64,000 bases of DNA from Podarcis gaigeae. Its lineage: Eukaryota. Made by a program: the position numbers and the translations under genes. Where the stretch lies: the NCBI GenBank assembly GCA_964106915.2, contig OZ066921.1; one strand, written 5' to 3'. This document shows positions 1,381-45,032 of the stretch, piece after piece. Below the pieces are notes generated by a model. That model searched no databases. It was not told the origin of the DNA and saw nothing but the letters and a program-made list of their open reading frames with translations. The number at the start of each line of letters is the position of its first letter. Positions within the stretch are counted from its first letter, which is position 1.

Positions 1381-2399
1381 CTGTGAGTTGTGGTTTGTTC
1401 TACTGAAAAGCAACCTAGGAATGTTTTTGAATGAATAAATATGTGCTTCAGCTGTTTTTGAAACAAGTGGCCTGATCTAAAAGACGTGGTTGCATGGATT
1501 CTTCCCCAAGCCCTCAAGAGTCAGCTATGCATTCATGATGTATCCCCACTTTGTATGCCCACACTGTTTCTTGGGGGTGGCCTGATACAAAGGAGAATTA
1601 GGGAGGGGCCAGTCTGTCCATGTTCAACAGATGTATTAAACAGGGGGTTGGCAGGTACCACATCATGCTAGCTGAAATTCCCACTTCTTCTCAAAATGAT
1701 ACGGAAATGCAGTTTCCCTTCTGTATCTTGCCTCCATCTGTCTGCACAGCAGATGGGGTGTTCTTGTCAGCAATGTGAAGGGCACATTCTAGGAGAGGCA
1801 ACAACAGATACAGGGTCTTCTGTGTGGAGGACCATGGATAGAAAGGCTTCAGCAAAATAATTTGGCAGCATCAAGAACCAGTGGCTACAAAGGAGGAGAA
1901 CTGGGGTGTTGGGGGAGTGGGAAATTCAGGAGGAGGTAGCAGAGGGAAAACACTAGGGAATTTTGCTCAGAGGCAGGGAACCTTTTTGAGCCAGAGAGCC
2001 ACAGGGAGGGCCAGAACCAAAAGTGGGCAGAGAAAGAAATGTGGACTTTTGGACATTAAGCTGACCTCTTCTACACAGGATTTCATGCAGACACCTTTCT
2101 CTCTTCCATCAAGGTTAGCAAGAAGCATATCAGATCTCAAGGGCACATTCCAGCCAGGCAAAAACACTCAGGGAGGGTGCACAGCAGGGCTAGTGGCTTG
2201 GGAGGGTGTTTGGCCCAGTGGGCCGTAGTTGGTCCCAGGGCCTGAGGTTCCCCATCCCTGCTCTAGCAAAATCTCTCTCTCACACACATACACCTGCTTT
2301 GTTTTTGCTAAAAATACCCAAGGAACAGCTTAGAGATCTTCTCAAAAGGTGATTTTGCTGTCACATTTTGTTTGCAGAGAGACTACCAACAAAGCCACG

Positions 2400-2559
2400 A
2401 TGCTCCATGAAGTAACCCTGTGGCTGTTGCTGGTGGTTGGCATATCCACGGTGACTGGAGGGGGAGCTGGAGGTGGTTATGGGCAGATCAAATACATGCA
2501 GCCTGTGGTGAAAGGACCTCTCGGCCCTCCATTTCGGGAAGGCAAAGGGCAGTACATAG
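2400..2559 (+). CDS. COL8A2: Collagen VIII alpha-2, first coding exon (signal peptide + NC2 start)
   Basis: Acceptor tttgcag|2378, Kozak-like gccacgATG at 2400, hydrophobic signal peptide [20 protein letters not shown], then [33 protein letters not shown]. Donor AG|gtaagt after 2559; phase 1 joins in frame (G+AT=Asp) to 16708. Confidence 0.95.
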
Positions 2560-3109: not shown

Positions 3110-4575
3110 GTTAACGGAGAAGATGTTTAAGTTCTGAGTGGTAGTTGCTGTGTCTCCCAGTGCTGGTTGCTAGGTGATGAAGAGATTGTGCCATTTTGGT
3201 TGTCTCACAGTGGTGCCTAAGAGTGTGTGGCACTGGGTCTGTTGACTAGCAGAGGTTGCCTGGAGGCCATAAGGCTGCAGTGTGTGGTCTGCATTCGTGA
3301 TGGTGGTAGTTAGGCCACAGAATGGCTGCAGAATCAAGTGGTACTATTGCTTCCCTTGATTGGGACACTATACTTCTGTTGATGCAGCCTAGAATAGCAT
3401 TTGCTTTTTTTTTTTTTTTTTTTTTTTTGCTGCTGCATCACACTGTTGACTCACATGAAGCTTGTGGTCTACTAAGACCCCTAGATCCTTTTCACATGTA
3501 CTACAGGAAAGCCAGGTGTCCCCCATCTTATATTTGTGCAGCTGGTACATTTGTCTCTGTGGAAATTCATTTTATTAGTTTTGGCCCAGTATGGGCCAAA
3601 CTTCTAAGATCATCTTGATTCCTGATTCAGTCTTCTGTGGCATTAGCTACCCCTCCCAGTATGGTATCATCTGCAAATTTGATGAGCAACCCCTCCATTC
3701 CTTTATCCCTTTCATTTATAAAGTTGTTGAACAACAGTGAGCCCAGGATAGAATTCTGTGGCACCCCACTTGTCACTTTTTTCCAGGATAATGAGGAACC
3801 ATTAGTAAGCGCTCTTTAGGTCAACCAGCTACAAATCTACCTAGCCGTTACCTTGTCCAGACCACAATTTACTAGCTTTTTTGCAAGAGTATCATGGGGA
3901 ACATTGTTGAAAGCCTTACTGAAATCAATATCCACTATGTCCACAGCACCTCCCTGATCCACAAAGCTTGTAACTGTATCAAAAACACACAGGAGGTTCA
4001 TCTGGAATGACTTGTTTTTGAGAAACCCATACTGGGTCTTAGTAACCAGTGGCAGAGGAAGGGGGGGGTGCTGTAGGGGCGGACTGCCCCAGGTGTCTTC
4101 GCTGAGGGGGGTGACATTTGGCGCACCGCCTGCCCGCCTGCGACTCCCAAGCCTACCTGAAGCTGTCGGGGGAAAGGGGGTACTGCGCCGCTTTGCCAGC
4201 AGCTGTTTGGGCAACTGGGGGAGGCTTGGGAGTCGCGGGCATGTGGTGTGCTGAATGTCCACCATCGGCGGCTTGCTCCGCCCCCAGCTATAGGGTGCAC
4301 ATGCCACTCCGTCACCCAAGCGGCTATCCCACGCCTGGGAGGGCACCCTCCATGCCCTGCCCCCTTTGGGAGCGCGCCCACCCTGGGCAGCGCAGGCATA
4401 TGCTCCGCCGCTGATGACAGCATCCTTTTTTCCTATGTGCTCACATATCAATCTATTCTAGGACCTTTCTTGGTATCAGTGTCAAGCTAATCATTTGGGA
4501 GTTTCCTGGGTCTCCCCCATCTTTTTGAAGATGGGGCAAAAAGTAGATTCAGGAAACTACCGACCAGTCAGCTTG
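3110..4575 (-). mobile_element. Decayed CR1 LINE, interrupted by a DNA-transposon insertion at 4047-4413
   Basis: QYGFLKNKS..NLL..FD.VT..VDQG.AVD..IDFSKAFNNVPHD; GVPQ-like and KFADDT-like segments further along the minus strand. Boundaries approximate. Confidence 0.8.
4047..4413. mobile_element. GC-rich non-autonomous DNA transposon (hAT-like termini) nested in CR1
   Basis: Imperfect terminal inverted repeats CAGTGGCAGAG / CTCCGCCGCTG (9/11); splits contiguous CR1 sequence; no clean TSD. Confidence 0.65.
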
Positions 4576-4708
4576 AGGGAACCACAAGGGAGCAAGCCTT
4601 TTCTGTGGTGGCTCAACACATACAGAGCTTCCCAGTAGAGCTGGGGTTGGCTTCTGCCTTTTTGTAAAGCCTTGAAGTCTGATTTGCATTGATTGACCCT
4701 TCCCCTGT

Positions 4709-6805
4709 GTGGTTTATGTTTCACTCACTGAAACTTCACAACACAACACCTCTCAACCCACTGGAGAACAACCACCACCCTCCCAACAGAACACTGACCA
4801 CCAACTACCACCGAAAAAGTGTTACACAAAAAGGGACTCCACATGGACCCCTCCTGATGGACGCAATACCACACTGGACTTGTACATTGACTGCTTCCGC
4901 CACAGAATCCAAACAGATGTGACCAGAAAACACCATTGCCTACAACAAAATCTAAACCATGCTGAAAGGAGAGCCATAGATAATCTCAGAAACAACCCAG
5001 ACATTATAATTAAAGAAGCGGACAAAGGTGGAGCTGTCGTCATCATGAACAAAACTGACTACATTCAGGAGGCTCACAGACAACTTTCCAATACCGCCTT
5101 TTACATAAAATTGGACTCAGACCCCACACAAGAATACAAAAAAGAACTGAACAAGATTGTTAAGGAGCTACCCCCACACATCCAAGAACAGATCCTCACT
5201 AACACACCAACAGAACCTCGACCAGGAACTTTCTATCTTCTACCTAAAATACACAAACCAGGAAATCCAGGACGCCCCATCATTTCAGGTATTGGCACTA
5301 TTACAGTGGGTGTCTCCGGTTATATGGACTCTGTTCTGAAACCATATGCCATCAGTGCTCCCAGCTATGTACGTGACACCACAGATTTTCTGAGGAAAAT
5401 ACAATCTTTAAATAATCTTCCCAACAATACTATACTAGCTACTATGGATGTGGAATCTCTGTATACCAACATCCCACACAACGATGGTTTACAAGCTATA
5501 AGGAACACCATTTCAGATAAAACCACAGCGGACTTTGCCACCAAACTCTGCCAATTTGTCCTTACCCACAACAACTTCAAATTCGGTGATGACCTGTTCC
5601 TTCAGATCAGCGGCACAGCAATGGGCACCCGCATGGCCCCACAGTATGCCAACATCTTCATGGCAGATTTAGAACAACGTTTCCTAAACTCCTACCCACT
5701 CAAACCTCTCTTGTACCTGCGATACATTGACGATATTTTTATCATCTGGACACATGGTCAACAGACCCTGAACACCTTCCACCAGAAATTCAATGATTTT
5801 CACCCCACAATCAACCTAACTATGAATCAATGTATGCAAGAAATACATTTTTTGGACACTACTATAAAAATACAGGATGGGCACATAGACACCACCTTAT
5901 TCCGTAAACCAACTGACCTACAAACATATCTACATGCCTCTAGCTACCATCCCAAACATACCAAACAGTCCATTGTATATAGCCAGGCACTACGTTACAG
6001 CCGCATCTGTTCCAATTCTACAGACAGAGACTCTCACCTAAGAGATCTACAGCAAACCTTTTTAGAACTAAAATACCCAACAGATGAAGTTAGACAACAG
6101 ATCAACAGAGCCAGACTGATACCCAGAGAGAACTTGCTGCAAGACAGACCCAAAAAAGAAAATAACAGAACACCTCTAGTCATCACATACAGCTCCCAGG
6201 TTAAAACAGTACAACGCATCATCAGAGATCTACAACCTCTCCTGGACAATGACAGTTCTCTTTCTCAAGCTCTGGGAGGAAGACTTTTCATTGCCTACAG
6301 ACAGCCACCCAGTCTTAAACAACTCCTAACCCACAATAATACTACAACCAGACCTAACACGGACACTGGCACCAGAGCCTGCAATAAACCCAGATGCCAA
6401 CTTTGCTGCCACATACACCCGGACAACACCATTACTGGCCCCAACAACATCACACATACCATCTCGGGACTATTTAATTGCTCATCGTCTAACATTGTGT
6501 ATGCCATCAAATGCCAACAGTGTCCTTCAGCTCTCTATATTGGACAAACAGGCCAGACCTTACGCCAAAGAATAAACGGATATAAATCGGACATCAGGAA
6601 TCACAAGACAGAGAAACCAGTAGGAGAACACTTCAATCTCCCAGGACATTCTATACAAGATCTCAAAGTAGCTGTTTTACTACAAAGGAATTTCAGAAAT
6701 AGACTGGAAAGAGAAGCTGCTGAATTACAACTTATCACCAAATTTAAAACCATGGAGAAACCTGGCCTGAACAAAGACCTTGGATTCTTATCTCATTATA
6801 CATGA
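4709..6805 (+). CDS. Penelope-like reverse transcriptase + GIY-YIG endonuclease ORF (N-terminus truncated; first in-frame ATG at 5045)
   Basis: ADKGGAVV, YLLPKIHK...GRPIIS, TMDVESLYTNIP, GTAMG, YLRYIDDIF, FLD; Cys-rich linker CNKPRCQLC; IVYAIKC..C..LYIGQT...R...E...GLN. The listed GTG start lies in flanking DNA. Confidence 0.9.
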   Translation: MVYVSLTETSQHNTSQPTGEQPPPSQQNTDHQLPPKKCYTKRDSTWTPPDGRNTTLDLYIDCFRHRIQTDVTRKHHCLQQNLNHAERRAIDNLRNNPDIIIKEADKGGAVVIMNKTDYIQEAHRQLSNTAFYIKLDSDPTQEYKKELNKIVKELPPHIQEQILTNTPTEPRPGTFYLLPKIHKPGNPGRPIISGIGTITVGVSGYMDSVLKPYAISAPSYVRDTTDFLRKIQSLNNLPNNTILATMDVESLYTNIPHNDGLQAIRNTISDKTTADFATKLCQFVLTHNNFKFGDDLFLQISGTAMGTRMAPQYANIFMADLEQRFLNSYPLKPLLYLRYIDDIFIIWTHGQQTLNTFHQKFNDFHPTINLTMNQCMQEIHFLDTTIKIQDGHIDTTLFRKPTDLQTYLHASSYHPKHTKQSIVYSQALRYSRICSNSTDRDSHLRDLQQTFLELKYPTDEVRQQINRARLIPRENLLQDRPKKENNRTPLVITYSSQVKTVQRIIRDLQPLLDNDSSLSQALGGRLFIAYRQPPSLKQLLTHNNTTTRPNTDTGTRACNKPRCQLCCHIHPDNTITGPNNITHTISGLFNCSSSNIVYAIKCQQCPSALYIGQTGQTLRQRINGYKSDIRNHKTEKPVGEHFNLPGHSIQDLKVAVLLQRNFRNRLEREAAELQLITKFKTMEKPGLNKDLGFLSHYT

Positions 6806-7078
6806 CAAAGCCATTTTTCACCTTTTCACCCCTTGCTTCTTCCTGTAAGACCTATTGCAATCGTTAAGAGTCGTCAACAGGCTCATCACAGCTATCTGCC
6901 AATCACCCATTCCCACCAGCCTTCTGAGTAATACCCCTCCCCACCTTCTCACTATATAGAAGGGTCTGGAAACTTCTGTTTCAGTGTATCTGAAGAAGTG
7001 TGCATGCACACGAAAGCTCATACCAAGAACTGACTTAGTTGGTCTTTAAGGTGCTACTGGAAGGAATTTTTTTTGTTT
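4734..7078 (+). mobile_element. Penelope-like retroelement (probably Neptune group), 5'-truncated
   Basis: Carries the RT + GIY-YIG ORF, a 3' non-coding tract with a hammerhead core, and flanking direct repeats TCACTGAAA (4725-4733, 7079-7087) consistent with a TSD. Confidence 0.92.
6986..7023 (+). ncRNA. Minimal type I hammerhead ribozyme of the Penelope-like element
   Basis: Stem I GTAT(6986-89)/ATAC(7020-23); core CTGAAGA (6990-96); stem II palindrome GTGTGCATGCACAC (6998-7011); GAAA (7012-15); vestigial palindromic stem III AGCT; UC cleavage site with the cut after 7019. Confidence 0.85.
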
Positions 7079-7187
7079 TCACTGAAAGTAAGTTGGTATA
7101 TCATTGTATTACTGGAATGGTGAGTCTGTTTTTATTGCTTTAAATTTATTTTTATTCTTTCTTTATATGTAAATACATATACAGTAC

Positions 7188-10770: not shown

Positions 10771-10869
10771 TGGGGCTTGAAGAGACTAGCTTTACCTCCC
10801 TGTCTGCAAAACAAGTGGCATAAGCACTTTCCCACATGGCACCTGTGTTTTGGCACACCTAATAATCAG

Positions 10870-11232
10870 GGACGCAGGTGGCGCTGTGGGTTAAAGCCTC
10901 AGCGCCTAGGACTTGCCGATCGAAAGGTCGGCGGTTCGAATCCCTGCGGCGGGGTGCGCTCCCGCTGCTCGGTCCCAGCGCCTGCCAACCTAGCAGTTCG
11001 AAAGCACCTCCGGGTGCAAGTAGATAAATAGGGACCGCTTACCAGCGGGAAGGTAAACGGCGTTTCCGTGTGCGGCTCTGGCTCGCCAGAGCAGCGATGT
11101 CACGCTGGCCATGTGACCCGGAAGTGTCTCCGGACAGCGCTGGCCCCTGGCCTCTTAAGTGAGATGGGCGCACAACCCCAGAGTCTGTCAAGACTGGCCC
11201 GTACGGGCAGGGGTACCTTTACCTTTACCTTT
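10870..11232 (+). mobile_element. Sauria SINE, full length
   Basis: tRNA-like head (GGTGGCGCTGTGG A-box, GGTTCGAATCC B-box), (ACCTTT)n tail, TSD TAATAATCAG (10860-10869, 11233-11242). Confidence 0.92.
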
Positions 11233-16707: not shown

Positions 16708-18629
16708 ATATGCCACCACTGCTGCCAATGGACCTCAAAGGAGAACCTGGACCTCCTGGAAAGCCTGGCCTAAGAGGACCTCCTGGCCCACCTGGCTACC
16801 CTGGGAAACCCGGCATTGGCAAACCAGGGCTCCACGGCCAACCAGGCCCCGCAGGCCCACCTGGCTTTTCTGGCATTGGCAAACCAGGCATCCCAGGGCT
16901 CCCTGGCAAGGCAGGTATGAAAGGGATGCCTGGAATTAATGGTGAGCCGGGCATGAGAGGAGACCAAGGGCCACGAGGCTTGCCAGGCCCTCCAGGAGTG
17001 CCTGGCCCAGCTGGCATTTCTGTGAACGGAAAGCCAGGCGCAACAGGAAGCCCAGGCCTGCCAGGATTCCGGGGGGAGCCTGGGGCCAAAGGAGAGCCCG
17101 GTCCCCGTGGCGAGCGTGGCATGAAGGGTGAAAATGGAGTTGGGAAGCCAGGGTTGATAGGGCCGCGGGGAAACGGAGGCCCCCCAGGCCCTGCAGGACC
17201 TCCGGGGCCACAGGGAATTGGGAAACCTGGACTTGATGGGTTGCCTGGTGCTCCAGGTGGCAAAGGTGACCCAGGGCTTCCAGGAGAGCCAGGGCTCATT
17301 GGGCAGCCTGGCCCTATGGGCCCACGTGGCCCACCAGGTGTGGATGGAATTGGTGTGCCAGGGGCAGCTGGTGTGCCTGGACTGCAAGGGCATATGGGCC
17401 CCAAGGGAGAACCTGGTCACCGTGGCCTTCCTGGCATGCCTGGGCCTACAGGGTACGGGAAGCCTGGGTTGCCTGGCTTAAAGGGAGATCGTGGGCAACC
17501 AGGTGTGCCAGGAATCAGCGGAGAAAAAGGGGAGCCCGGAATGGATGGAGAGCCAGGTGAAATGGGTCCCCCTGGTATCACTGGGGCCCCTGGGATTCCT
17601 GGTTCTATGGGCATGCCAGGTAAACATGGCATTCCAGGCCCTAAAGGTGAAGCTGGACCAAGTGGGCCTGCAGGGCTACCAGGTATGCGCGGGGACCAAG
17701 GGCCTAGCGGTTTTGTGGGGAAGCCAGGGATTCCTGGGGAGCGAGGATTGCCTGGACCACAAGGGATGCCTGGCCCAATGGGCCCCAAGGGGGAAGGTGG
17801 ATTCGCTGGTCTCCCTGGGGTCCCCGGGATTACAGGGCCCATGGGCCCAAAGGGGGACTCTGGTATTCCAGGGCAACCAGGCCTCAGAGGCTCATCAGGG
17901 ATACCAGGTCTGCAAGGCCCTTCTGGTCCAATGGGGCCCCAAGGTTTACCAGGACTGAAAGGAGAGCCTGGCCTCCCAGGCCAACCAGGAAATGGCAAAG
18001 TAGGGGAGCCGGGTATTGTAGGTCCCAGTGGGCCACCAGGGGTTCCAGGAAATCCTGGATTAAATGGGCTTCCAGGACCACCAGGGCCACCTGGACCCCC
18101 AGGAGCACCCGGGATGTTTGATGAGACAGGGATTGCTGGCCTCCACTTGCCAAATGGAGGTGTAGAGGGAGCAGTTCTGGGGAATGGCAAGCCTGGGAAG
18201 CCACAGTTTGGCCGAGGGGAACTATCTGCCCAGATGGTACCTGCCTTCACTGCCATCTTAACATCACCATTCCCAGCCTCAGGAATGCCAGTAAAATTCG
18301 ACAGGACTTTGTACAATGGTCACAACGGCTATAACCCAGTGACAGGAATCTTCACTTGTCCCATCTCTGGCATCTATTATTTTGCCTATCACGTGCACGT
18401 TAAAGGAACTAATGTCTGGGTGGCACTTTACAAAAACAACGTGCCTGCCACCTATACCTACGATGAATACAAAAAAGGCTACTTGGACCAAGCTTCCGGT
18501 AGTGCAGTGCTTGAACTCAAAGAGAACGACCAGGTCTGGATCCAAATGCCATCGGATCAGGCCAACGGTCTGTACTCCACTGAATACATCCATTCATCTT
18601 TTTCTGGATTCCTTCTCTGCCCTACATAA
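16708..18629 (+). CDS. COL8A2: Collagen VIII alpha-2, terminal coding exon (Gly-X-Y triple helix + C1q/NC1 domain)
   Basis: Acceptor ttcgcag|AT; [14 protein letters not shown] start; long Gly-X-Y run with GxGKPG imperfections; C1q domain ending [18 protein letters not shown]-stop, which I recognise as the alpha-2(VIII) C-terminus. Total 693 aa. Confidence 0.97.
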
Positions 18630-28841: not shown

Positions 28842-31420
28842 TTTAACTCGCTTTTTTACTTCTCCAATTTTTAACTCGCTTTTTTACTTCTCCAACCTAT
28901 GGAGTTAAAAACGATTTTAAATTTGGCGCCCCTTGGTACAACTCTACTTGCAAACTAGCCAGACTCCATCTACATACAATATATAATGACTATAAACTTT
29001 CCGACGCTCCGGCCTTATCTCCATCTTATTCCCTGGCTAAAAAAGCATACAAACAGGCCCAGAAATCGGCCAAACGGGAATGGCATTTAAATCGTTGGCA
29101 GACTATAATTTCTGCCTCAAAATCTCATAACTCCCGGAAATTTTGGTCCTTAATAAAGGGAAGAAGCACGAAATATCCCTTAACGGTGATCCCGGCCACT
29201 ACATGGGGAGCAGTTCCTGAGAAAATATTTCTCAGTTGCAGAAGCTCCGGCCATTCATTGGAGACCTTCTAATCCCCTTCCTGTCTGGCCTAATACCAAC
29301 CCTGCTGAAATCCTAGAATTGATAGCTGAGCTGAAAACTGGTAAGGCCCCTGGGCCTGATTTGGTCCCTGTTGAGGCTATAAAGCTTCATCCTGTATGGT
29401 GGGCAGGGATTTTAGCTAAAACGTTTGACGCAATAAATGCCACGGGCTTAATACCAGGAATGTGGAAGGAGGCCATTATAATTCCTATCTACAAAAAAGG
29501 CCCTCCCGGTGACCCGGGGAATTACCGGAATATCAGTCTGCTATCGTCCATTGGGAAAATATATGCCCGTTTTTTGCTGGCAAGGTTGATGAAGTGGTCA
29601 GTTGAGGCTGACCTGATTGGACATGAGGAAGCTGGATTTAGATCAAACCGATCCACAACAGACCAGGCAATTATTCTTTATCACTTAGCCCGGAAATACT
29701 CGACATAGATTTGAAAAGCTGCGTTTGATAGTATTCCGAGGAAATTACTATGGGATAAACTTGCCGGCTGGGGAATAGATAGAAGGCTCCTGTGGCTTAT
29801 CTCCCAACTTCATGCCGGGTCCGTGGCCAGGGTGAGAATATCCCCTGCTGGAGACCTGACTAACCCTGTGCCAGTAAATAAGGGTGTACGCCAGGGTTGT
29901 ATTTTAGCGCCTCCTCTTTTTAACTTATTTATCAGTGATATGAGGAACCCATTAGCCGTCTCACAAAAAATTATCCATGCCCCTCATATAGCAGATTACC
30001 CTTGTCCTCTACTTCTCTACGCAGATGATGCGGTACTACTCTCTTACTCCAGAGTGGGTTTAAGGAGGGCACTAAAGATTTTTGCGACATATTGCCATTC
30101 TAATCATCTGTCTATCAACCACACCAAGTCCAAAGTACTGATATTTTCAAGGAGTCGAAAACTTTATTCATGGAAACTGGAGGGCACGAAAATTGAACAA
30201 GTACATAAATTTAAATATTTAGGAATTTATTTTCAATATAATTTAGGGTAGAAAGCGCACGTTGAATATATTCAAAACAAGACAAAAGCCCTATCACACT
30301 CCCTCCTCCGTTTTTTCTACTCTGAGGGGGCCTTATTCATCCCTGCGGCCTTGAAAGTGTATAGCATCAAAGTGATGGCCACAATGGCCTATGCTGCACC
30401 TTTATGGGCTGCCTTTGCAAACCTCTCACCTTTGGAGTCACTTCAAAGCCAATTCTTACGCCGACTCCTAAAATTACCAACATGCGTAAGTAATGCGGCT
30501 ATCCGCTTAGAAATGAAGATCCCCTCAGTGGAGTTAGTTATACGGAGGAGAGTTTTGATTTATTGGATATCTCTATGGCATAAACTCCCAAACCACTATC
30601 TCATTCAATGCATGTGGCGTGATGACTTCACAAATTCGTGGTCAGGAAAAATCCAAGCCAAATTGCTGTCCTATGAGATCTCGCCCACTGAACTGCTCAA
30701 GCTGGATCTAAATGTGGCAAAAAGGTGTATAAATCAAAGGCTGGATGATGCGGAGCTATACCAAAATTTCATAGCTGGCGGTGGAGCCTGTTCGCCGTTA
30801 AATTTCGGCATAACCCCTATCTACCGCGCTCCGTCCTACTTAACATCGCTAATGGCCGCGTCTCACCGATATGCCTTCATTAGAGCTAGGTTCAATGTCT
30901 TTCCATCAAATGTGCTGAGACATAGATTCACTAAGGGCCAAGTCTCTTCAATGTGTGCTTGTGAAATGAAAACATCTGAATCTCTACATCATGTTATGTT
31001 TATCTGCCCTTTGTACAGTTCAGCCCGCGCTAGTATACTAAACTCCATAATCCAGCCTATGGCTGACAAACCAGTAGACCTACAGCTTGCCTGGGTTCTT
31101 CAAGATGTGGATCCTTATATTACCCTACAGGTTGCTAAATTCCTAACAGCCGTCCTCTCGTACAAGAGACGGAATGGAATGTTAGCTGATTATTGATAGT
31201 TATAAGAATTTTCTATAATGACATCAGATATTGATTTTAATGTAGTGCCTAAAATTTTTAATCTTAATCTTTTCTTATGAATGGCTAATATCTGCCCTTG
31301 TGAGTTGTGAATTGTGTTATATTATTTGTGGTTTGTACGAGTCCGCTGTTTTATTTTTGTTGTTGTTGTGTGTGTTTTATGATGGGCGTAAAGCCGAATA
31401 AACATTTTGATTTGATTTGA
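28842..31420 (+). mobile_element. 5'-truncated non-LTR retrotransposon (RTE-X-like), ORF2 disrupted; antisense in ADPRS intron 1
   Basis: RT pieces GKAPGPD, PIYKKG..DPGNYRNISLLS, GFRSNRSTTD, DLKAAFDSI, GVRQGCILAP, LLYADD; C-terminal CxC..E..HH..CPLY knuckle; frameshift near 29705, TAG at 30249; ends AATAAA + (TTTGA)n. Clade assignment is tentative. Confidence 0.85.
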
Positions 31421-44030: not shown

Positions 44031-45032
44031 GAACTTCTTTTAAGAAAAACAGAGGAATTTATAGTTGCAGAGCAATTACAATCCCCCCAAATCACTTTAA
44101 ATCTAGGATTGTGTAAACAAGACAATCAGATGCTAAAAGGGAGCTGAATATGATGGGGAATGAGCCCCCAAGTAATTGGGGTGCTTTGATTATCCCATTA
44201 CTTTCTCTGCCAAATAAAATAAGTTATAAACAATGCAATGGCCTTTCTCTTGGGTATGGTATACTAGGTGGTGTTTCAGTTTGCTTTTTTTTTTAATTGA
44301 CCAAATAGTAGCAAAGATATAAAAGGTGTTCTACAAGGTACACTGAAAATCTGTTGGAATGTGGGAGCCTGAGATGTCAAATGTCCAGTTAAATTCTAAC
44401 ACCAGCCAGTAAATTTATGATTTTGGGTACTAGAGATAATACTGTTTCAGTGATTCTTAAAAAGTGTCCCCCTATTGTTTTAGTATTGCTTTTATAATAT
44501 ATAACCCTAGAATACTTTTCAAAAGGCAGGATATTAACTGGCAGCACAATCCCAACCAAGCCACCTCAGAAGTAAATTTAAACGTGAATTTAATGGGGCT
44601 TATTCTCAGTTAAGTGGAGTTAGGATTGCAGCCAAAGTAAGTAAATAAATGAAGTATGGCATGCCTTACAAGGTTGGTGCAATTATTACTGAAAGAATGT
44701 ATGTGATGCTCAAATGTGGTGGAAATTTGAAATGCACTGTTGCTACAAACATCTAAGTATTGCTATGCAGTGCTTTTTTTCTAGAAAAACTGGTACCAGA
44801 AATGGCCCCTCACTGCCTTTTCCCACCCACACCTGCCTCCCTCCCTGGCCCCCACAACCCCGCCCCAATGCGACCCTACAAGCTCTTCCCATCCAAAGGC
44901 TGGCTATGTGTCATTCTGCACCATTAAGACAAGTTGCACCTCCTCTGGCATCCCACACTGCATTTAACTCAGTTTGATGCCTCAGACACAATACCAATAT
45001 GTTGTACTTGACCACCAAGTCTTTTGACTCAC

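What the first reader, a model, noticed from the sequence alone, without database searches (positions are those of the whole stretch)
6986..7023. Intact hammerhead ribozyme core on the sense strand of the COL8A2 pre-mRNA
Seen: all hammerhead core nucleotides (CUGAAGA, GAAA, UC) with a 4-bp stem I, a perfectly palindromic 14-nt stem II and a palindromic AGCU in place of stem III. Established: Penelope-like elements carry minimal hammerheads in their terminal repeats, and these cleave poorly as monomers but well as dimers through the palindromic stem III. Inference: the element is co-oriented with COL8A2, so every nascent transcript carries this ribozyme between the only two coding exons. Only one copy is present here, so cleavage might need trans-dimerisation with another COL8A2 pre-mRNA or another Penelope transcript. 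That would make collagen output conditional on transposon RNA levels.
Basis: partly seen in the sequence, partly recalled or inferred. Interest (0 to 1): 0.75.

Follow-up and report, generated by a model that had tools for sequence, protein, structure and literature searches.

The report
Passenger hammerhead in a collagen intron
A minimal hammerhead ribozyme motif of an already described kind sits at the tail of a broken, likely recent Penelope-type jumping gene inside a collagen gene intron, and it is likely a passenger that rarely cuts and does not control the collagen message.

Summary
The motif is real: stem I (6986-6989/7020-7023), CUGAAGA, a 5-bp stem II, GAAA, AGCU and UC. It is the only descriptor hit in the window (3 of 300 shuffles gave any). 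It lies in the 3' end of a 5'-truncated Neptune-type Penelope-like element (4734-7078, 9-bp target duplication), sense to COL8A2, in its one coding-region intron. It fits the published minimal PLE hammerhead consensus and differs from a published turtle motif by compensatory changes.

The regulatory reading is not supported. The family's 3' end is enormously repeated (summed depth about 10^5 times the flank). The insertion is seen in 1 of 3 lizard-type DNA runs and is likely absent in the other 2. Published PLE hammerheads cleave weakly even as dimers, or need the element's protein. My folding disfavours the active dimer. RNA reads from a relative show no end pile-up. Polymerase reaches the next exon in about 2.5 min.

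Side lead: many family copies start just before the ribozyme, about 30 nt after a TATA-like box, which suggests uncut RNA is the template. The scan has noted Penelope hammerheads in other genomes (358 notes, at least 29 genomes); none matched this sequence.

The parts
6986..7023 (+). Minimal type-I hammerhead motif: stem I 6986-6989/7020-7023, CUGAAGA 6990-6996, extra A 6997, stem II 6998-7011 (5 bp, CAUG loop), GAAA 7012-7015, palindromic AGCU 7015-7018, C17 at 7019; predicted cut 7019/7020
   Evidence: matches the consensus and turtle row of Fig. S3 in PMC4209133
4734..7078 (+). 5'-truncated Neptune-type Penelope-like retrotransposon copy (2345 bp), with a single 3' pLTR
   Evidence: target duplication; a family contig of depth 418 continues upstream of 4732 with other letters (tables 7 and 8)
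4725..4733 (+). 5' copy of the 9-bp target-site duplication TCACTGAAA
   Evidence: a shared 9-mer occurred in 126 of 5000 random window pairs; X4 and X10 contigs stop aligning at 4724
7079..7087 (+). 3' copy of the 9-bp target-site duplication
   Evidence: family 3' ends pile at 7073, 7079 and 7083 (table 7)
4734..6805 (+). Open but N-terminally truncated RT + CX4CXXC linker + GIY-YIG ORF; Tyr629 where the 7 aligned homologues have His
   Evidence: (RVT_1 E 3.6e-12; GIY-YIG 22.0 bits against a cut-off of 22.6)
6953..6986 (+). TATA-like box (TATATAGA, 6953) with an Inr-like TCAGT whose A (6983) lies 30 nt downstream; predicted pLTR start site just before stem I. The AG at 6983-6984 also reads as a possible splice acceptor
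   Evidence: 11 such TATA+Inr listings on both strands of the window, so weak alone; family 5' ends pile at 6984/6986
2378..2559 (+). COL8A2 first coding exon (ATG 2400, hydrophobic signal-peptide-like start, donor GTAAGT at 2560)
16708..18629 (+). COL8A2 second coding exon (collagen helix + C1q domain)
7085..7093 (+). Donor-like AAA|GTAAGT right after the 3' duplication; host sequence, also part of the inferred empty site
   Evidence: one of 4 GTAAGT in the intron; use untested

Best explanation
This is the standard minimal hammerhead motif of a Neptune-type Penelope-like retrotransposon, carried into the COL8A2 intron as part of a 5'-truncated and likely recent insertion, and it likely stays uncut while the intron is spliced, so it likely has no effect on collagen output. 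Shown: the motif; its place 180 nt after the RT-endonuclease stop codon; the element's ends and duplication; its sense orientation; the family's extreme 3'-end abundance. Inferred: lacking helix III, it can form a catalytic core only by pairing AGCU and both halves of stem I with a second copy, or with help from the element's protein. No second copy lies in the window, and this copy cannot make full-length protein. Polymerase would reach the 3' splice site 9.7 kb downstream in about 2.4-2.8 min, so splicing would win. The motif is intact likely because the copy is young, not because the host selects for it.
For: Motif and null test. Element anatomy. The closest named full-coverage relatives are turtle PLE proteins at 65-69% identity; an unnamed protein is 97% identical. 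Published consensus and turtle motif: stem I GCAU/AUGC against GUAU/AUAC here, stem II GUGGG/CCCAC against GUGUG/CACAC, both compensatory. Abundance: summed depth over 6996-7102 is 1.37M, 1.62M and 1.37M against flank depths of about 10-20 in the three DNA runs, a ratio of 7x10^4 to 1.2x10^5 (not a copy number). Lineage restriction: X2 has a 378-nt contig with 0 differences running 28 nt into the element. X4 and X10 each have a 469-nt contig that stops aligning at 4724 with 129 and 133 letters left over, matching the distance from 7079 into the GT repeat, and both cover 7103-7185. Weak activity in print. Folding. RNA run X23 (another species): no place with a pile-up of read ends, and similar depth on both orientations over the motif bin (297 and 272). 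Slow intronic ribozymes leave splicing unaffected (Fong 2009 as cited in PMC10919898).
Against: No cleavage assay was possible. Nearest-neighbour folding has no tertiary or protein term and probably underrates hammerhead junctions; in the 38- and 48-nt contexts stem I does form (0.64-0.88). The RNA run is from another species, 12% of it was read, and ordinary RNA-seq detects 5'-OH or cyclic-phosphate ends poorly. It says nothing about this locus. The empty-site reading is inferred, since the joint 4724-7079 was not among the 15 joints shown (110 hidden). The X2 bridge is 28 letters, under the tool's 31-letter rule, and X2 may be the window's own sample. The family ORF is transcribed in sense in X23 (depth about 7-35 over 4856-6246), so a helper protein may exist in some cells. 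The CPEB3 ribozyme lies a similar 9.9 kb from its next exon and does affect mRNA, though with a 2-3 min half-life.
Confidence: 0.83

Rival explanations
1. One reading: the motif cleaves COL8A2 pre-mRNA after dimerising in trans with another hammerhead-bearing RNA, so collagen output falls when Penelope RNA rises.
For: The core and the AGCU palindrome are intact. The active dimer is a valid nested structure. Dimers and trimers of a Schistosoma motif cleaved, weakly. Potential partners are many, since hammerhead-bearing reads are present in a relative's RNA.
Against: The active dimer is predicted at +3.5 kcal/mol against two monomers. The favoured dimer pairs the palindromic stem II in trans and leaves helix III unformed. 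One molecule per nucleus is only 3-17 pM. The time window is about 2.5 min. Partners would be mostly other passenger copies (inference), which gives a constant background, not a switch.
Confidence: 0.03
2. The element's own RT-endonuclease protein, made from full-length copies elsewhere, binds the intronic pLTR RNA and helps the hammerhead cut, lowering COL8A2 only where the family is active (for example the germ line).
For: The Anolis Poseidon hammerhead cut only when the element's protein was added, independently of its endonuclease activity. Near-full-length family copies exist (5'-end depth about 20-50 times the flank), and sense ORF reads occur in X23.
Against: In Anolis the protein-binding region was placed in the first 172 nt of the ORF, downstream of the pLTR. 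This copy ends at 7078 without the family tail or ORF start (table 7). The same paper found no RNA-seq ends at the cut site. Poseidon is a different clade.
Confidence: 0.05
3. The insertion does alter COL8A2, but by ordinary transposon means: its pLTR promoter starts an RNA at about 6983 that splices from the donor-like site at 7088 to the second coding exon (a signal-peptide-less chain from ATG 16710), or its sense AATAAA signals end transcripts early.
For: TATA-like/Inr-like pair and 5'-end pile-up. AAA|GTAAGT at 7088. ATG 16710 is in frame. There are three AATAAA/ATTAAA in the element.
Against: No RNA from a carrier was available. The rest of the intron has 11 such hexamers and 2 more GTAAGT besides the true donor. 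A short upstream ORF of 9 codons starts at 7004. Solo young insertions are usually silenced (general knowledge).
Confidence: 0.09

Closest known systems
Minimal type-I hammerheads (min-HHR) of metazoan Penelope-like elements (Cervera & de la Pena 2014, PMC4209133), especially the Chrysemys picta bellii motif of Fig. S3
   Same: Core, extra nucleotide after A9, G10.1-C11.1, 5-bp helix II, 4-bp helix I, GC palindrome instead of helix III; single 3' copy in a 5'-truncated element; the ORF's closest named full-coverage relatives are turtle proteins.
   Different: One compensatory pair change in each stem, a 4-nt palindromic loop II (the turtle row has a 7-nt non-palindromic loop), and C17 rather than U17. 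Lizards are not among the listed rows of Fig. S3.
Poseidon_Ac hammerhead of Anolis carolinensis (Frangieh et al. 2024, PMC11167929)
   Same: Hammerhead in the pLTR of a squamate PLE; not needed for insertion in vitro; no RNA-seq ends at the cut site.
   Different: Poseidon clade, with the ORF starting at stem II. This element has the Neptune/Nematis-type cysteine linker, and its activity is untested.
Domesticated intronic ribozymes: amniote hammerheads in RECK, CTCL and DTNB introns (PMC6155905 passages) and the CPEB3 HDV-like ribozyme (PMC10919898 passages)
   Same: Self-cleaving motif on the sense strand of a long intron; CPEB3's is also about 10 kb before the next exon.
   Different: Those are conserved across species and described as canonical or fast. 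This one is minimal, still inside its transposon, and likely absent at this site in 2 of 3 related DNA runs.

Membership tests
Metazoan PLE min-HHR (type I) | Core CUGANGA ... GAAA ... UH | tested here: met
   6990-6996, 7012-7015, 7018-7019
Metazoan PLE min-HHR (type I) | [quoted passage not shown] | tested here: met
   A6997; G6998-C7011; features listed
Metazoan PLE min-HHR (type I) | Short helix I, helix II of 5 bp or more, no helix III with palindromic 15.2/16.2 | tested here: met
   4 bp, 5 bp, G7016/C7017
Metazoan PLE min-HHR (type I) | Located in the terminal repeat 3' of an RT-GIY-YIG ORF | tested here: met
   180 nt after the stop at 6805 and within the element's 3' end at 7078
Metazoan PLE min-HHR (type I) | Compensatory changes against relatives | tested here: met
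   By eye against one published turtle row: one compensatory change in each stem. No family alignment could be built.
Metazoan PLE min-HHR (type I) | Self-cleavage as a dimer or with protein | not testable with these tools
   Folding only
Rfam hammerhead families | Score against the covariance models | tested here: not met
   0 hits at gathering; 3 unrelated weak hits at E<=10, none over the motif
Neptune-type EN+ PLE | Single ORF, RT followed by C-terminal GIY-YIG | tested here: met
   RVT_1 230-377; GIY-YIG 600-652, just under the Pfam cut-off
Neptune-type EN+ PLE | CX2-5CxxC linker between RT and EN (shared with Nematis) | tested here: met
   C562, C567, C570 invariant in the 8 aligned proteins; definition
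Neptune-type EN+ PLE | CCHH motif of the endonuclease | tested here: inconclusive
   C606, C609 and H645 present; position 629 is Tyr here and His in the 7 others, so the family has it and this copy has lost one
Neptune-type EN+ PLE | Phylogenetic placement among reference Neptune RTs, against Nematis | not tested
   No labelled references were fetched. 'Neptune' rests on the linker, and on a preprint that found Neptune and Poseidon as the PLE groups of its vertebrates.
Transposition-competent PLE | Full ORF with an upstream pLTR (tandem arrangement) | tested here: not met
   About 190 N-terminal residues of 880-aa homologues are missing; no second pLTR in the window
Domesticated intronic ribozymes (RECK/CTCL/DTNB type) | Conserved at the orthologous site across species | tested here: not met
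   Empty site inferred in 2 of 3 DNA runs; the joint itself was not displayed
Domesticated intronic ribozymes (RECK/CTCL/DTNB type) | Canonical helix III and longer helix I, able to fold as a monomer | tested here: not met

The most novel reading that the evidence does not exclude
In these lizards thousands of introns carry sense-oriented Neptune hammerheads. When the family's protein or RNA surges, they cut their host pre-mRNAs, so transposon activity directly lowers the output of many genes, COL8A2 among them in the lineage that has this insertion. A family-wide deficit of sense-oriented intronic copies would be its footprint.
Probability: 0.05. Interest if true: 0.7.

Novelty: new member of a known kind. 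Interest (0 to 1): 0.17.

Why it matters
As it most likely stands it matters little: it is one more copy of a published, very abundant motif in a young intronic insertion. It has two modest uses. The site likely differs between close lizard lineages, so inserted and empty alleles offer a natural test of whether a minimal PLE hammerhead can harm a host transcript. The pile-up of family 5' ends just before the ribozyme, rather than at its cut site, is genomic support in a Neptune-type family for the in-vitro result that uncut RNA is the insertion template; what PLE hammerheads are for is still open.

Tried and rejected
Rfam at two thresholds: no hammerhead model matches.

Own genome: none held, so no copy count, orientation-bias test or family alignment.

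Pattern scans: metagenome contigs gave 1 locus (L001), which has no Penelope context that I could see by eye, a 3-bp stem II and an imperfect stem I; I set it aside. Viral contigs gave 0.

Run search: no RNA holder listed. I laid 4 of the 24 runs (X2, X4, X10, X23), and tables 3, 5, 7 and 8 show only the best-supported rows.

A second hammerhead or pLTR within the window that could pair in cis: none. Self-BLAST gave two short chance-level hits, and the one at 44442-44467 has no core.

The perfect stem II palindrome as a dimerisation aid: rejected. It is not conserved in the turtle row, and a trans stem II duplex leaves helix III unformed.

My first exon join was off by one base and was corrected.

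Lunse et al. 2017 is not held; I saw only its title in a reference list. PMC3365414 and PMC8782182 gave only reference-list hits.

Literature searches listed no paper on this insertion or on this lizard family's hammerhead. The library lacks most subscription papers and Repbase/Dfam, so the family may well be catalogued. Supplements of the bioRxiv preprint could not be seen and may list lizard motifs.

Full report
1. Observation. The motif is present as described. One search places stem I at 6986-6989/7020-7023 (four Watson-Crick pairs, no extension), CUGAAGA at 6990-6996, an extra A at 6997, stem II at 6998-7011 (five pairs and a CAUG loop, so the 14-mer is a palindrome), GAAA at 7012-7015, GC, and UC at 7018-7019. 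The predicted cut is 7019/7020. My descriptor found this one hit on both strands of the window. 3 of 300 dinucleotide shuffles gave any relaxed hit and 0 of 300 gave a hit this good. Rfam does not recognise it at either threshold.

2. Host gene. The CDS 2400-2559 joined to 16708-18629 reads 693 codons without an internal stop, across a 14,148-nt GT..AG intron on the + strand. The second exon has collagen and C1q domains. Of 3 hits to its last 178 residues, 2 are named collagen VIII alpha 2 and 1 is named only as a C1q protein. The host is probably a lacertid lizard: Zootoca vivipara proteins contain a piece of the same element, and a repeat near 10865-11230 looks like a Sauria SINE (recalled, not tested).

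3. The element. A frame open from 4697 to 6805 encodes an RT (E 3.6e-12), a CX4CXXC linker and a GIY-YIG domain scoring 22.0 against a cut-off of 22.6. That linker marks Neptune and Nematis elements (PMC8557442, passages); I did not build a tree. Named full-coverage relatives are turtle proteins at 65-69% identity, and one unnamed protein is 97% identical. TCACTGAAA occurs at 4725-4733 and 7079-7087; a shared 9-mer arises in 126 of 5000 random window pairs, and the read data put both element ends there. The copy is therefore 4734-7078. It lacks about 190 N-terminal residues and an upstream pLTR, and has Tyr for a His kept in the 7 other aligned proteins. The ribozyme begins 180 nt after the stop codon.

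4. Related genomes. I laid 4 of 24 listed runs on 4000-7185. In all three DNA runs depth climbs steeply toward the 3' end, to 1.4-1.6 million over 6996-7102 against about 10-20 on the flank. The tool warns this is no copy number; I take it only as 'very many, likely tens of thousands'. X2 (organism A, possibly the window's own sample) has a 378-nt contig with no differences that crosses the 5' junction by 28 letters, slightly under the tool's 31-letter rule, and has no depth on the right flank. X4 and X10 (organisms B and G) each have a 469-nt contig that stops at 4724, the base before the duplication, with 129 and 133 letters left. That fits 7079 to just inside the GT repeat, and both runs cover 7103-7185. 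I read this as the empty site; the joint itself was not among the 15 shown. So the insertion is seen in 1 of 3 runs and is likely absent in 2 of 3.

5. Would it cut? Cervera and de la Pena 2014 (PMC4209133; main text parts 1-2 of 4 and supplement parts 1-2 of 3 read) describe these motifs in Neptune and other PLEs, report thousands per genome, mostly as single copies, and note them in turtles and snakes. Their Schistosoma motif did not cleave as a monomer and cleaved weakly as a dimer or trimer. Their turtle row differs from this motif by one compensatory pair in each stem and has a non-palindromic loop II. A review (PMC6765202, passages) calls the rates very low even as dimers. Lunse 2017 could not be read; its title says such ribozymes cleave as dimers, and it may report better rates. 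Frangieh 2024 (PMC11167929, parts 1-2 of 4) found that the Anolis Poseidon hammerhead cuts only with the element's protein, is dispensable for insertion, and leaves no RNA-seq ends at the site.

My folding gives stem I a probability of 0.64-0.88 in 38- and 48-nt pieces but at most 0.04 in the five contexts of 96-801 nt. The active dimer is 3.5 kcal/mol above two monomers. The best dimer pairs stem II in trans and leaves helix III unformed. These models lack tertiary and protein terms, so they show a tendency only. In RNA run X23 (organism H, 12% read, 2010 reads laid) the motif bin is covered in both orientations (297 and 272) and no place shows a pile-up of ends. This is family-level, from another species and by an insensitive method.

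6. Would cutting matter? The site is 9,688 nt before the acceptor, about 2.4-2.8 min at the elongation rate quoted in PMC10919898. That paper (passages) cites Fong 2009 that fast intronic ribozymes block splicing and slow ones do not, and finds an effect for CPEB3, whose half-life is 2-3 min. A bimolecular, weak ribozyme is unlikely to meet that clock (inference; one molecule per nucleus is 3-17 pM). Its likeliest partners would be other passenger copies, a steady background rather than a transposon-driven switch.

7. Mechanism committed to. A Neptune-type RNA was reverse-transcribed from near its 3' end at a nick in this intron, stopped early, and left a 2.3-kb copy with a 9-bp duplication (structure shown; process inferred from known PLE biology). 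The hammerhead came along and is intact because the copy is young (inferred; 15 amino-acid differences from the 97% relative). It is transcribed with COL8A2 and likely removed uncut (0.83). Rivals: non-ribozyme effects of the insertion (0.09), protein-assisted cutting (0.05), trans-dimer control (0.03).

8. Side lead. Among the 24 loose-end rows shown (1933 hidden), 5' ends cluster at 6986 (60, 44 and 43 contigs) and 6984 (28 and 21), with unrelated AT-rich letters upstream (agreement 0.37-0.40); 7020 is not among them. A TATA-like box at 6953 lies 30 nt before an Inr-like A at 6983. TATA/Inr-like pairs are described in rotifer pLTRs (PMC3846280, passages), whereas Drosophila Penelope has a TATA-less promoter (PMC2377424, passages). 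The likely reading is that many short copies are reverse transcripts running to the 5' end of an uncut RNA that starts just before stem I. Alternatives are a splice acceptor at 6983-6984, as in D. virilis where the intron ends at helix I, or older subfamilies whose likeness ends there. I could not separate these.

9. Novelty. This is a new member of a known kind. Searches listed nothing on this insertion, but the motif class, its PLE location and its presence in reptiles are in print. A 2026 preprint (10.64898/2026.07.22.740005; passages and Discussion) reports about 43% of related Xenopus retrozymes in introns, with modest depletion, so intronic placement is common. PMC6155905 (passages) was used for the domesticated intronic hammerheads. 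Earlier scan notes mention Penelope hammerheads in other genomes; none matched by sequence or by two narrower word searches. Interest 0.17.

Noticed in passing
window 6953-6986, with family data: Family 5' ends pile at 6984/6986, just before stem I and about 30 nt after a TATA-like box, not (among the rows shown) at the cut site; this suggests uncut RNA starting there is the template for many ~95-nt copies.
   Followed up: partly
window 7085-7093 and 16708-16712: A donor-like AAA|GTAAGT directly after the insertion and an in-frame ATG at the start of the second coding exon could allow a pLTR-started, signal-peptide-less COL8A2 transcript.
   Followed up: partly
window 7004-7033: A 9-codon ORF starts in loop II of the hammerhead; in Anolis Poseidon the element's ORF starts at stem II.
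   Followed up: no
window 4000-4430: A GC-rich repeat of about 410 bp upstream of the element; many contigs skip about 4045-4451, so it is another insertion within an older repeat, and RNA reads of run X23 lie on it.
   Followed up: no
window 28847-31196: Frames of a second, broken reverse-transcriptase element on the + strand (RVT_1 hits in two of four frames tested).
   Followed up: no
window 10865-11230: A repeat ending in short ACCTTT units that resembles a Sauria SINE (recalled, not tested).
   Followed up: no
L001 1496-1534: A hammerhead-like core with a 3-bp stem II and an imperfect stem I in a contig that looks like vertebrate, perhaps bird, DNA (impression only); a decayed relic or chance.
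   Followed up: no
proteins P0085, P0087, P0119: Zootoca vivipara predicted proteins join a CARD domain (PF00619) to the endonuclease end of this element family; probably gene-model read-through, possibly exonisation.
   Followed up: no
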